Assembly (NCBI RefSeq): GCF_035084215.1
Contig: NC_090364.1
Span: forward strand, 4,588,001-4,652,000
Origin: Heptranchias perlo
Taxonomy: Eukaryota
Length of the DNA: 64,000 nucleotides
Direction: 5' to 3'
A program made the position numbers and the translations under genes. The notes below the pieces were generated by a model. It worked only from the letters and a program-made list of their open reading frames with translations, was not told the DNA's origin and did not search any database. Below are positions 5,800 to 44,242 of this stretch, piece after piece; the stretch's first letter is position 1, and every line of letters begins with the position of its first letter.

Positions 5800-5966
5800 C
5801 AAAGCTCTGATTGGCTCTGGGAATAAATCCCTCCCTCACAACGCCACTCCTTTGTTAGTTGGTTTCTGGATTCATGGACGATTCCTGATTGGCTATCGGG
5901 GATTGTCAATCATCATTGGTGATGTCATTGCTTACCAAAATGCAGGCTGTCCCAGGAGTATAAATA
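5800..5966 (+). promoter_or_regulatory. Ferritin copy 2 promoter (inverted CCAAT boxes, TGATGTCA, TATA)
   Basis: ctgATTGGct twice, catcATTGGtgatgtca, TATAAATA at 5959, 87 nt before the ATG. Same layout in all copies. Confidence 0.75.
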
Positions 5967-6045
5967 TAAGAGCTTGTGAGAGAAGAAGTTAGTTTTAGAG
6001 CTTTCTGAGTAATAGTGAATAAGTACTATTATAGAAATAGTGACA

Positions 6046-7929
6046 ATGGCTTCCCAAGTGTGTCAGAACTATCACAAGGAGTGTGAGGATGGTGTCAACA
6101 AGCAGATCAATATGGAGCTCTATTCCTCCTATGTTTACCTCTCCATGGTGAGTCTTTTATTAATTGCTACTGCATTCTAAGCAGTTGGAATTTCTCCAGT
6201 TCAATAAACTGACTTTAAAGTACATTTTTCTTGATTTCTTGCTGCCTCACTGGGAAGACAAATCTTTGGCCAGTGAGTACTTCCAGTGTGTAATAGTGAT
6301 CTTGTTGAGTTAATGGACTGCTCCTTGCAGCAGCTGCACTCTGTTGTGGGGTTTAATGTATGAATGTGCTTCAGCTGCTGCCTGAGTTTGTAAGAGAAGA
6401 GCAGATATCTTGTCAAGTGCTTGTCAACATTTGACAGACAAGTTCAGTTTCAATGGGGTGACTGTAGACAGTGAAATGTTGACCGGTCCTCACTAGTTTT
6501 CTTGCCTTGAGAATCCTGGTGTTGATTTTACTGGAATTTAGTGTAATAGATCTAGGCACAGAGTGTAAAACTACTGGAATGAAGTAATTTTCTCTTGTCC
6601 TCCACCAATTTTAGATTAGAATGGAGAGTAAAAGGAGGTACAATGTTCAGAAGTTTTTTGGCATGAAATTATAAACTTTTTTTAGTTCCTTATTTGCTGA
6701 TTGTGTCTTTATCCTTTTTTTTATAGGGAGGGGAAGCTTGCCAAAAAGTGAAGTAAATTGAGTTTCACTAGTAACAAATGTTTTCTATTTGAAAGCAATT
6801 AACATCATTAACTGGGGGAAAAAGAATGAATAGCTTTAAATTGGATAGTGATCTCGATCAAACATGATATTCTTAAAATTCTCTCCACAGTCCTATTACT
6901 TTGACCGGGATGATGTTGCCCTGCGTCACTTTGCTGAGTTCTTCAAGGAGCAGTCACATGAGGAACGGGAGCACGCTGAGAAACTGCTGAAATTCCAGAA
7001 TCAGCGTGGAGGCCGAATCATCTTGGAGGACATCAAGGTTTGATTTAATAAATGAGTGGTCTTCTATGTGGCTCCCCTTGGACTGATTATTTCAAATATT
7101 TTCTGCAGCAATTATTTTTTATTTGACTCCAGTTACTTAATTCAGTAATTCTATGTATTCTTGACATTGGTTGATGGTAACATGGACATCTGATTTGCTT
7201 TTTTGAACTGCTCCTATTTTCCTTCAATACTTTGTCATGTATTTTGTTTAATCCATTGTAAGTGATCTGGCTAAGACTTGATTCCCATTTCAGAAGCCAG
7301 AGCAGGATGAGTGGAGCAATGGTCTGGAGGTGATGCAGAGAGCTCTGCAGATGGAGAAGAATGTGAACCAGAGTCTGCTGGATCTGCACAAACTGTCCAC
7401 TGAGAGGACAGACCCTCATGTAAGTCCTTAATGTGGGCCTTTGGCTAAGTTGGAGATGGAATGATACAGTTCTTGAGTCTATTAAGATCTTTTACCCAGT
7501 AGCTTTGTGGAGGGATGTTGACCTTGGATTTTTTTGAGTGGAGACAGGGCAGGGAGGTTGACTTACTGTGGCCATTGAGAGGTAAGTGTGTCCCAGTGTC
7601 ATGAGGATCTATGCACCTGTTGTACAGTGAGTTTACTCTAATAATGCAGTAATTCCATCAATCTGAAGTGTTCCACTTGACTATCCTCCAGTCCAAGAGG
7701 ATTAAATTCCAAACTCTGGCAAATGCCTTGCTATCTGCAGCTGGACATAACTATTCTCTATCTTTTCTTCCAGTTGTGTGACTTCCTGGAGAGCCACTAC
7801 TTGGATGAACAAGTGAAGATGATCAAGACGCTTGGAGATCACATCACCAACCTGACGAGACTGGGAGCCCCTGAGAATGGCATGGGAGTGTACCTGTTTG
7901 ACAAGCTCACTCTGGGGGAGAGTGATTGA
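6046..7929 (+). CDS. fth1: Ferritin copy 2 (intact)
   Basis: Exons 6046-6147, 6891-7037, 7294-7419, 7774-7929. Starts MASQVC. Two K to T changes in exon 4 (MIKTLG, NLTRL). TGA stop. Confidence 0.95.
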
Positions 7930-41433: not shown

Positions 41434-41762
41434 ACCAAAGGTGACCATCCACAGGTACAAGACGGACACGGCCTGCGGGGGCGGTCGCTCCGACTCTCGT
41501 CCGCAGCATTCTCTGCGCCCACTTGGCCCTGGAGAAGAGCATTCCGTGTCTGCCGTTATGGTTGAGGCTTTCCGCGACTGGTGGGAGCAGCAGGGACTGG
41601 AGCGAATCCTCGACTTTAACAATAAAGTTATAATTTGATTCTGGTTTTGTTTGATATCGTGATAAAGAAATCAAGATGCCTAAAAAAAAATACAGGTGAC
41701 ACTGGGTCTCAAGACAGTTACACAAGTGTCCCATCTTAGAATTATTTTAGTCCAAAAAAAAA
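41434..41762 (+). mobile_element. Old Tx1 3' fragment (duplicate of the 10402/30781 insertion)
   Basis: Near-identical to 30781-31105. Confidence 0.85.
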
Positions 41763-42043
41763 GATATCACCGAGACCAATCACCCAAACCAGCCTGTATT
41801 CCAAAGCTCTGATTGGCTCTGGGTATCAACCTCTCCTCCACCACACCCCTGTCCTTTGTTAATTGGTGCTTGGATTCATGGACGATTCCTGAGTGGTTAT
41901 CGGGAATTGTCAATCATCATTGGTGATGTCATTCCTTGCTTCAATGCGGGCTGTCCCAGTAGTATAAATACAGGAGCTTGGGCTGGAAGAGGGTAGTTGT
42001 AGAATTATCTAGGTGATAGTGAAAATATAAAGATATAGTAAAG

Positions 42044-44242
42044 ATGGCTTCCCAAGTGTGTCAGAACTATCACAAGGAGTGTGAGGATGGTGTCAACAAG
42101 CAGATCAATATGGAGCTCTATTCCTCCTATGTTTACCTCTCCATGGTGAGTTGTGTATTAATTGTCACTGTTTTGTAATGGTTAGATTTTCTGGCTTTAA
42201 ACTCTTTCTCTTGGCTTTGTTTCACCTCCCTGGTCAGAAAAATCTTGGGGCAGTGAGCATTTCTGGTGTGTAATACAAGGTGATCTTGTTGAGTTTAAGG
42301 ACTACTCCTTGAAGCAGCTGCACTCTATTGAGGGGTTTAATATATGAACCTGGCTCAGCTGCTGCCTGAGTTTGAGGAGCAGAAACCTGGTCAAGTGCTT
42401 GACAACTTTCAGTTTCAATGGGGTGATTGTAGCCAGTGAGATGTTGACAGGTCCTCACTTGTTTTCTTGCCTTGAGAATCCTAGTGATGAAGCCTTCACT
42501 GTGCCTAGATCTCTATTACACTAAATTGCAGAGTGTAAAACTACTGGAATGAAGGAATTTTCTCTTGTCTTCCACCAATTTTAGATTAGAATGGAGTAAA
42601 AGGAAGTACAACTTGCTCAGGAGTTGAGTTTGACTTGATGTGAAATGTAATCCCAAACATTAGTGTTTTTTTGCTGCTTAAATCTTCACCGCAGGGGCTG
42701 GAGTGCATCCTGGATGAGGAAAATAAAATTTTAATTTGATGCCTGGTTTTGGTTTATTTGCTTTTTAGTACTTAAGCACACCCTACACCCCCCCCCCTTA
42801 TAAAAGGGGGGCCTAAAAACACAAAAAAAAGGTGCTGGTTGGTGGGTAAAGTGATAGTTGAGTTGTTTGGTATCATGAGGGATTTTGTAGTGAGCGGTTT
42901 GTTCCCAGTGCTGGTGACAGTTGGAGTGGTTTGTTGCTCTGATATTTGGCAACAGTTTAGAGGCCAGAGATTTCCATGGAGAAGAGTAAAACCCACCCCA
43001 AAAAAAGAAAAAATCTTTATCCTGTGTTTTTATAGTGAAGGGAAGCTTCCCAAACATAGTGAAGTAAATTGAATTTTGCTAGTTAACAAATAGTAACTAT
43101 TTTTTAATGCAATTAATATCTTGAAGTGGAGGAAAAATAACCAAATTTGGACTTGCATATTGTAATCAAGGTCTAGCATAATATATTTAAAATTCTCTCC
43201 ACAGTCCTATTACTTTGACCGGGATGATGTTGCCCTGCGTCACTTTGCTGAGTTCTTCAAGGAGCAGTCACATGAGGAACGGGAGCACGCTGAGAAACTG
43301 CTGAAATTCCAGAATCAGCGTGGGGGCCGAATCATCTTGGAGGACATCAAGGTTTGATTTAATAAATGAGTGGTCTTCTATGTGGCTCCCCTTGGACTGA
43401 TTGTTTCAAATACTTTCTATAGCAATTAGTTCTCATTTGACTCCTGTGGCTTAATTCTGTAATTCTATGTTCTTGACATTGGTTGATGGTAACATGGACA
43501 TCTGATTTGCTTTTTGAACTCCTCCTATTTTCCTTCAATACTTTCTCATGTATTTTGTTTAATCCATTGTAAGTGATCTGGCTGACCCTTGATTCCCATT
43601 TCAGAAGCCAGAGCAGGATGAGTGGAGCAATGGTCTGGAGGTGATGCAGAGAGCTCTGCAGATGGAGAAGGATGTGAACCAGAGTCTGCTGGATCTGCAC
43701 AAACTCTCCACTGAGAGGACAGACCCTCATGTAAGTTCTAATGTGGGCCTTTGGGTAAGTTGGAGGTGGTGGAATGTTACAGTTCTTGAGCCTATTAAGA
43801 TCTTTATACCCAATATCTGTGTGTTGGGATGTCTATCTTGGATTTTTTTTGAGTGGAGCCAGAACATGAAGGTTGACCTACTGTGGACATTGAGAGGTAA
43901 GTGTGTCCCAGTGTCATGAGGATCTATGCATTTGTAAGTTTAATCCAATACTGCAGTATTTCCATCAATCTGAAATGTACCATTTGACTATCCTCCAGTC
44001 AGAGAGGATTAAAATCCAAACTCTAGGGGAAGTTCCTTGATATCTGCTGCTGGACATAACTATTTTCCCTTTTCTTCCAGTTGTGTGACTTCCTGGAGAG
44101 CCACTACTTGGATGAACAAGTGAAGATGATCAAGAAGCTTGGAGATCACATCACCAACCTGAAAAGACTGGGAGCCCCTGAGAATGGCATGGGAGTGTAC
44201 CTGTTTGACAAGCACACCTTGGGGGGGGTAGGGAGTGATTAA
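42044..44242 (+). CDS. fth1: Ferritin copy 8 (intact, 178 aa, C-terminus [11 protein letters not shown])
   Basis: TATA 41963; exons 42044-42145, 43205-43351, 43605-43730, 44081-44242; in-frame +6 nt near the stop. Confidence 0.93.
42687..43010 (+). mobile_element. Young Tx1 3' fragment C in intron 1 of copy 8, with a captured gene fragment
   Basis: [16 protein letters not shown], 3'UTR, ccccccttataaaagggggg hairpin, A-tract, unique 42831-42999, A-tract; TSD aaatctt at 42680-42686 and 43011-43017. Confidence 0.92.
42875..42999 (+). pseudogene. Captured 5' fragment of a secreted-protein gene, resembling elasmobranch ZP3-like N-termini
   Basis: [42 protein letters not shown]: signal-peptide-like hydrophobic stretch preceded by a 44-nt leader. 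ZP3 identity is from recall and needs BLAST. Confidence 0.6.

What the first reader, a model, noticed from the sequence alone, without database searches (positions are those of the whole stretch)
5959..42046. Amplified ferritin genes without an iron-responsive element
Seen: in every copy with a visible promoter the TATA box is only ~60-90 nt from the ATG, and the implied leader has no CAGUGN loop or IRE stem. Known: vertebrate H, M and L ferritin mRNAs typically carry a 5'UTR IRE bound by IRP1/2. Inference: an IRP-independent, dosage-amplified ferritin system (at least 11 copies or relics in 64 kb, open at both ends), plausibly for bulk maternal iron loading of large yolky eggs, or for a non-storage role.
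Basis: partly seen in the sequence, partly recalled or inferred. Interest (0 to 1): 0.7.

Follow-up and report, generated by a model that had tools for sequence, protein, structure and literature searches.

The report
Shark ferritin array lacking iron switch
Sharks carry a long row of near-identical ferritin genes that appear to have lost the RNA switch that normally ties ferritin output to iron levels, probably to fill egg cells with stored iron; the row itself is already reported, but the missing switch seems not to be.

Summary
The array is real: 7 intact four-exon ferritin genes, 2 broken copies and 3 flank relics in 64 kb. Copy c8 is identical to a Heptranchias perlo protein. All 8 visible promoters have the TATA-like box 62-87 nt before the ATG. 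No IRE was found anywhere, while the same scans found it in 4 fish ferritin mRNA contigs. The transcription start was not mapped. The genes form a cartilaginous-fish clade distinct from FTH1 and from the single-copy M-like gene beside which they seem to have arisen. Ferroxidase ligands are intact and there is no signal peptide. A Greenland shark preprint already reports the 150+-copy expansion and ovary-specific expression. Not found in my searches: the IRE loss, exon-focused homogenisation, and changes at two NCOA4-cleft residues (A19D, R23K). Best reading: a cytosolic ovarian iron store set by gene dose rather than IRP. Yolky eggs alone do not explain it: sawfish and chimaera each gave only one such gene. 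New variant of a known kind.

The parts
16..1912 (+). Ferritin copy c1, intact, 176 aa; exons 16-117, 876-1022, 1277-1402, 1757-1912; promoter off the window
   Evidence: 1-3138 is 97% identical to 26818-29960
5809..6045 (+). c2 promoter and leader: two inverted CCAAT (GATTGG) at -237 and -159, TATAAAT at 5959, leader about 57 nt without IRE
6046..7929 (+). Ferritin copy c2, intact, 176 aa; exons 6046-6147, 6891-7037, 7294-7419, 7774-7929; AATAAA 140 nt after the stop
   Evidence: contigs bridge introns 1 and 2 at GT..AG
10961..13255 (+). Copy c3 from TATA (10961); ATG 11043; intact, 176 aa
   Evidence: 99.4% to P0130; intron 1 bridged
16187..17228 (+). Copy c4 from TATA (16187); ATG 16273; broken, ends in a degenerate exon 2, followed by LINE insertions
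26753..28732 (+). Copy c5 from TATA (26753); ATG 26833; intact; a LINE 5' end abuts the promoter about 250 nt upstream
31313..33209 (+). Copy c6 from TATA (31313); ATG 31394; intact
36182..38132 (+). Copy c7 from TATA (36182); ATG 36244; intact; shortest leader (TATA to ATG 62 nt)
41963..44242 (+). Copy c8 from TATA (41963); ATG 42044; intact, 178 aa
   Evidence: identical to P0133 over 178 of 178 aa
46277..46992 (+). Relic of the upstream part of a repeat unit, ending before the core promoter
51482..53646 (-). Copy c9, inverted, probable pseudogene: CATAAAT at 53646, exon-1 end and donor deleted, E63K; promoter 2% from c6/c8 but introns 12-24% from them (mosaic)
51049..51299 (-). Second, orphan copy of the exon-4 tail and 3' UTR behind c9
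62886..64000 (-). 3' UTR and flank of a further inverted copy whose coding part lies beyond the window

Best explanation
This is part of the shark-wide ferritin cluster. A duplicate of the somatic M-like ferritin gene arose beside it in early cartilaginous fish (inferred) and came to be transcribed from a CCAAT/TATA promoter into a 30-60 nt leader with no IRE (shown in DNA, start site inferred). In sharks it was amplified by unequal crossing-over into tens to hundreds of copies whose exons are kept alike by conversion and purifying selection (pattern shown, mechanism inferred). Without an IRE, IRP1/2 cannot hold the mRNA silent when free iron is low, so output follows transcription and copy number. 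The product is a cytosolic ferritin with an intact ferroxidase centre, made in bulk in the ovary, most likely in growing oocytes, where it stores and shields iron for the embryo (inferred). Changes in the NCOA4-binding cleft may also slow its autophagic turnover (hypothesis).
For: No IRE by three tests with working positive controls. Promoter blocks and TATA are conserved: promoter distance 0.11 against leader 0.20. All 7 ferroxidase ligands are kept in 7 of 7 intact copies and in 57-63 of 63 clade proteins per site. pN/pS is about 0.33 over 21 pairs. In-frame stops upstream of the ATG in 8 of 8 copies rule out a signal peptide. Clade of 23 rows at 100/97, apart from FTH1 (97/95) and the single-copy M-like genes (100/95). 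The M-like gene shares a contig with the array type in 10 of the species listed, and the two have consecutive accessions in sawfish and zebra shark. Contigs from two studies bridge the predicted introns at GT..AG. The Greenland shark cluster is ovary-specific (preprint passage). Ferritin mRNA is abundant in vertebrate ovary generally (PMC1488847, passages). An IRE-less yolk ferritin exists in snails (PMC10799875, passages).
Against: No start-site, cell-type, protein or iron data. Ovary specificity comes from one sentence in a preprint on another species, and no Somniosus protein was among my hits, so orthology to that cluster rests on great white shark members of the clade. Sawfish and chimaera gave one member each and skates none, though all make yolky eggs (own knowledge). 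The sawfish member has lost two ferroxidase ligands. A145M beside the ferroxidase site in 62 of 63 clade proteins could change activity. Sister relation to tetrapod M is only 91/83, and no teleost M or mammalian L protein was in the tree.
Confidence: 0.55

Rival explanations
1. Protective buffer rather than provision: IRE-less ferritin is made ahead of need to keep free iron low in long-lived, lipid-rich oocytes (guarding against oxidative damage and ferroptosis), and carries little of the embryo's iron.
For: The same anatomy fits: constitutive synthesis, active site kept, cytosolic. Mammalian FTMT is IRE-independent and thought protective (PMC7760355, passages).
Against: Hundreds of copies (90% clusters of 127-180 members across species) look like more than a buffer needs (inference).
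Confidence: 0.2
2. Expression belongs to somatic cells sampled with the ovary: follicle cells, macrophages clearing atretic follicles, or the granulocyte-forming epigonal organ attached to shark gonads (own knowledge). The role would be iron withholding or recycling.
For: The preprint says only 'ovary'. No CPE-like motif was found in the 3' UTR of 7 of 7 intact copies, so there is no sign of maternal-mRNA control.
Against: No direct evidence here. The 3' UTR motif scan was crude, and oocyte-made proteins need not be CPE-controlled.
Confidence: 0.12
3. Copy number is largely a by-product of an unstable, LINE-rich tandem array; a few copies do the work and the dose has no function.
For: 2 of 9 copies broken, 3 relics, mosaic c9, a 97% segmental duplication; paralogs group by species or order; near single-copy state in sawfish and chimaera.
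Against: 7 of 9 copies intact with pN/pS about 0.33 and intact promoters; multi-copy in all 12 named shark species that gave members; cluster described as at least 250 My old.
Confidence: 0.08
4. An IRE is supplied after all, by an upstream exon or a more distant start site.
For: The start site is unmapped; weak acceptor-like strings occur in the c2 and c7 upstream regions.
Against: No IRE by Rfam on either strand of all 64 kb, which holds seven complete intergenic spans; the two canonical-loop hits in the window lie outside the genes, near the LINE block, with poor lower stems; acceptor-like strings are absent in 6 of 8 copies; TATA context conserved.
Confidence: 0.05

Closest known systems
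Shark ferritin clusters of the Greenland shark genome preprint (bioRxiv 10.1101/2024.09.09.611499; one passage seen)
   Same: Large, old tandem ferritin expansion in sharks, shared with great white shark; mostly full-length copies; reported ovary-specific.
   Different: The preprint labels copies FTH1 and FTL by likeness to human genes; my trees make them a separate clade. It has 0 occurrences of 'IRE', 'UTR' or 'iron'.
Vertebrate M-type (middle) ferritin: frog 'heavy chain A/B', shark single-copy M-like gene
   Same: 176 aa, ferroxidase ligands, likely parent locus.
   Different: A fish M-like mRNA contig carries an IRE at -164 (L004); these copies do not. Array-type proteins differ at 6 of 104 positions conserved in somatic ferritins. 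The shark M-like gene's own 5' UTR could not be read.
Snail yolk ferritin (Biomphalaria, Lymnaea; PMC10799875, passages)
   Same: No IRE; tied to egg provisioning.
   Different: Snail protein is secreted (18-aa signal peptide) with a 42-aa insertion; the shark protein has neither and is amplified.
Mammalian FTHL17 family and FTMT (PMC7760355 passages; PMC2887969 abstract)
   Same: Germ-line or tissue-restricted ferritin paralogs; mouse Fthl17 is a cluster of 6-7 genes; FTMT is not IRE-controlled.
   Different: FTHL17 lacks ferroxidase activity; FTMT is intronless and mitochondrial; the shark genes keep three introns and the active site and are far more numerous.

Membership tests
Vertebrate cytosolic ferritin (H/M type) | Ferritin domain over the whole chain | tested here: met
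   PF00210 E 4e-40 for P0133 = c8; human H and frog M structures at E 1e-85 to 1e-81 for P0018
Vertebrate cytosolic ferritin (H/M type) | Ferroxidase ligands E28, Y35, E62, E63, H66, E108, Q142 (human H, Met = 1; list recalled) | tested here: met
   7 of 7 intact copies; 57-63 of 63 clade proteins per site
Vertebrate cytosolic ferritin (H/M type) | IRE in the 5' UTR | tested here: not met
   controls 43, 46. DNA only, start site unmapped
Vertebrate cytosolic ferritin (H/M type) | 24-mer cage that oxidises and stores iron | not testable with these tools
   Single-sequence model unusable (pLDDT 40)
FTH1 orthologues | Groups with chondrichthyan, teleost and tetrapod FTH1 | tested here: not met
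   FTH1 clade 97/95 excludes the array clade; shark fth1a lies on other, larger contigs
M/L ferritin lineage | Groups with M-type chains and lies at the M-like locus | tested here: inconclusive
   Sister to lungfish and tetrapod M at 91/83 only; no teleost M or FTL in the tree; same contig and neighbouring accessions as the M-like gene
Shark ferritin cluster (Greenland shark preprint) | Tandem multi-copy cluster shared with great white shark | tested here: met
   Carcharodon proteins fall in the same clade, several on one 33-Mb contig
Shark ferritin cluster (Greenland shark preprint) | Ovary-specific expression | not testable with these tools
   Runs are coded, tissue not given
Invertebrate yolk ferritin | No IRE | tested here: met
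Invertebrate yolk ferritin | Signal peptide and 42-aa insertion | tested here: not met
   In-frame stop upstream of ATG in 8 of 8 copies; 10 of 204 array-type proteins have N-extensions, mostly unrelated to each other; length 176-178 aa
FTHL17 | Loss of ferroxidase Glu62 | tested here: not met
   Kept in 7 of 7 intact copies

The most novel reading that the evidence does not exclude
Sharks evolved an ovarian ferritin released from both brakes on ferritin level: IRP repression of its mRNA (IRE lost) and NCOA4-driven ferritinophagy of the protein (A19D and R23K in the binding cleft; Arg23 in 0 of 177 array-type proteins against 38 of 38 in the somatic reference sets), then amplified it a hundredfold. 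The result would be a long-lived maternal iron vault set by gene dose alone, whose exons are homogenised separately from its introns.
Probability: 0.25. Interest if true: 0.75.

Novelty: new variant of a known kind. Interest (0 to 1): 0.5.

Why it matters
The IRE/IRP switch on ferritin is treated as near-universal for cytosolic vertebrate ferritins. A spliced, catalytically intact vertebrate ferritin that dropped it and was amplified to a hundred or more copies would be a natural experiment in uncoupling iron storage from iron sensing. It gives a concrete mechanism for an expansion that a shark genome paper reported without explanation, shows that these genes are mislabelled as FTH1/FTL in copy-number comparisons, and makes testable how shark eggs are supplied with iron for long development. 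The NCOA4-cleft changes offer a natural variant for ferritinophagy work.

Tried and rejected
No whole genome is held, so total copy number, neighbours and the somatic genes' 5' UTRs could not be read. Sequencing runs: no RNA holder listed; 5 runs guessed to be RNA, word share 0.08-0.17; 4 of 5 laid, contigs only. They cannot show start sites or levels. Not counted as evidence: almost no cover just upstream of the c2 TATA (bin 5671-5941), and a roughly 2,000-4,900-fold contrast in exon depth relative to repeat depth between runs X1/X3 (4.1, 3.5) and X2/X4 (0.0008, 0.0017), although X1, X2 and X4 share a sample code. It would fit tissue-restricted expression, but tissues are unknown. Only 15 of 207 joints and 24 of 1929 loose ends were shown. 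The 7419>13100 joint is exon 3 to exon 4 of different paralogs, a mapping effect. The PDB comparison was made with P0018 (95-97% identical to the intact copies), not with the window's own protein. The structure prediction from one sequence failed; no fold search was run. NCOA4 binding could not be modelled because no NCOA4 sequence was at hand. A signal peptide suggested by the sawfish model P0326 was rejected: extensions are rare and one reads through the TATA region. Rfam MIR821/RUF2 hits at 57724-57934 are a palindrome, far below gathering score. Literature: 10 searches gave one paper on the shark expansion and none on its IRE. The library lacks most subscription journals. bioRxiv 10.1101/2025.02.19.638963 has 0 hits for ferritin or FTH1; I recall a later report of an FTH1b expansion in Greenland shark but could not confirm it. 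PMC3466250 has no 'ferritin' in its main text and its supplements could not be read; they may list elephant-shark ferritin cDNAs by tissue. Supplements of the Greenland preprint were not seen. PMC10015161 has no iron or ferritin mention. Zebrafish fthl27-31 papers were seen as a listing only; whether those genes lack IREs was not checked. Earlier scan notes: none. Trees left out fused or partial gene models and most mammalian FTH1 rows: 130 rows (quick search, included the forced c9 reading), 59 rows.
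Full report
What is there. The window holds a tandem ferritin array with ATGs 4.6-6.0 kb apart, 10.6 kb across the LINE block. Nine copies have exon 1. Seven are intact four-exon genes of 176-178 aa with GT..AG introns. c4 stops in exon 2. c9 is inverted and has lost the exon-1 donor and the first T of its TATA box; its apparent open frame came from forcing coordinates across that deletion. Three non-coding relics bring the count to 12. The nearest named proteins are from the sevengill shark Heptranchias perlo: c8 is identical to P0133 over 178 aa and c3 is 99.4% to P0130.

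Promoter and leader. In all 8 copies with a visible promoter the TATA-like box lies 62-87 nt before the ATG, preceded by two inverted CCAAT blocks in 6 of 8 and one in 2 of 8. The promoter aligns in conserved blocks and the leader does not: mean distance 0.11 against 0.20. If transcription starts about 30 nt after the box (textbook spacing), leaders are 32-57 nt with only 1-4 C residues and weak folds.

IRE. Rfam found none in the window at E<=5 or in 4900-8200 at E<=10. My pattern scan found no canonical hit in or around any of 9 copies; two relaxed-loop hits in c2 have 1 of 5 lower-stem pairs. No decayed IRE stands above shuffled background. The same methods found IREs in four fish ferritin mRNA contigs, three H-like and one M-like, at -164 to -256. 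So the DNA-level observation is solid. The mRNA start is not measured: the only runs were contigs. They do bridge the predicted introns at GT..AG in two studies, which shows that spliced forms of this family exist.

Which ferritin. In a 59-row tree the array forms a clade with one sawfish and one chimaera protein (100/97), separate from FTH1 (97/95) and from the single-copy elasmobranch M-like genes (100/95); its sister is lungfish and tetrapod M at only 91/83. A 130-row quick tree agrees for the shark rows and shows paralogs grouping by species or order. The M-like gene shares its contig with array-type genes, with consecutive accessions in sawfish (XP_051898831/2) and zebra shark (XP_048377537/8). 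That suggests a local duplicate; accession order is a hint, not a map. Ninety-percent clusters hold 180, 138 and 127 sequences across species. Twelve named shark species are multi-copy. Sawfish and chimaera gave one member each and skates none in the best 120 rows of three searches (481, 1785 and 755 hits), which is a limited view.

Protein. The seven ferroxidase ligands are present in 7 of 7 intact copies (ligand list recalled). In-frame stops precede the ATG in 8 of 8 copies, so there is no signal peptide. Of 104 positions conserved in at least 90% of 39 somatic ferritins, 6 are changed in the array: A19D, R23K, A31S, R91Q, L107M, A122S. Two of these lie among the 5 conserved positions of the NCOA4 interface (hypergeometric p 0.026, chosen after seeing the data). 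In human FTH1, A19Y, N22A and R23A abolish NCOA4 binding (PMC11076521, passages). In the wider set, position 23 is Lys in 168 of 177 and never Arg; position 19 is Asp in 143 of 177 and Ala in 25; 27 proteins did not match the pattern. Against this reading: Lys keeps the aliphatic chain, human R23L kept 86% binding in pull-downs, shark FTH1 itself has Ser at 22 in 13 of 13, and 3 of 4 invertebrate ferritins have Lys23. It is a lead only. A145M next to the ferroxidase site is also near-fixed (62 of 63).

Evolution of the copies. Among the 7 intact copies mean pS is 0.043 and pN 0.014, while introns differ by 0.08-0.13 and 3' UTRs by 0.18. Fourfold sites vary at 4 of 54 against 376 of 1076 intron columns (Fisher p 5.5e-6, sites not independent). 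Exons are thus more alike than protein selection alone explains. Exon-limited gene conversion or codon selection (GC3 0.67 against intron GC 0.36) could do this. c9 is a mosaic and c1/c5 are a 97% duplicate.

Prior knowledge. The Greenland shark preprint reports 155 'FTL' and 179 'FTH1' copies, about 80% in three clusters syntenic with great white shark, at least 250 My old, the largest ovary-specific. It does not mention IRE, UTR or iron. IRE-less egg ferritin is known in snails but is secreted. IRE-independent or germ-line ferritin paralogs are known in mammals. Ten searches found nothing on IRE loss in shark ferritins; the library is incomplete.

How it most likely works. Shown: array, promoter anatomy, absence of IRE sequence, intact active site, cytosolic form, separate clade. 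Taken from a preprint: ovary-specific expression in another shark. Inferred: short IRE-less mRNA, escape from IRP, oocyte location, iron storage (0.55). Rivals: protective buffer (0.20), somatic ovarian or epigonal cells (0.12), neutral array (0.08), hidden IRE (0.05).

Verdict. Real and correctly observed; the amplification is already reported, the regulatory twist apparently not. New variant of a known kind; interest 0.5.

Noticed in passing
window 19850-26589 (-), with a partial second copy at about 17450-19652: Full-length GC-rich LINE with open ORF1 (680 aa, 23843-25885) and ORF2 (1271 aa, endonuclease and RT by Pfam), possibly young; it sits between broken c4 and c5. 'Tx1-like' is my recalled label. 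Similar A-tailed ends occur at 42707-42830 in c8 intron 1.
   Followed up: partly
window 55521-60971: Inverted duplication of a LINE with GDSL-type ORF1 (arms 1886+201 nt, 98%), enclosing a 76-nt perfect hairpin at 57750-57918; this explains the spurious MIR821 hit.
   Followed up: partly
window 1-3138 and 26818-29960: 97% identical segmental duplication covering c1 and c5.
   Followed up: yes
window 3507-4947 and 47728-49167: Two 96% identical RT-bearing LINE fragments on the minus strand.
   Followed up: no
P0003, P0194, P0199 and others (cluster 7): Many 264-267 aa ferritin models in carpet and horn sharks with a partly doubled domain; may be mis-joined neighbours or real exon duplications.
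   Followed up: no
P0334, P0331, P0057: Array-type genes on other, much larger contigs (137-229 Mb) in three sharks: dispersed copies or retrocopies.
   Followed up: no
P0096, P0195, P0230, P0353: Vertebrate-type ferritins filed under bacterial names on contigs under 1 kb; P0096 groups with catshark M-like ferritin, so probably contamination.
   Followed up: partly
window 62400-62660: Short tandem repeat of a roughly 65-nt GC-rich unit beside a LINE 3' end.
   Followed up: no
exon 1 codon 6 of all intact copies: Arg of the conserved N-terminal motif is Cys in 7 of 7 intact copies and 43 of 63 clade proteins; a possible surface thiol.
   Followed up: no
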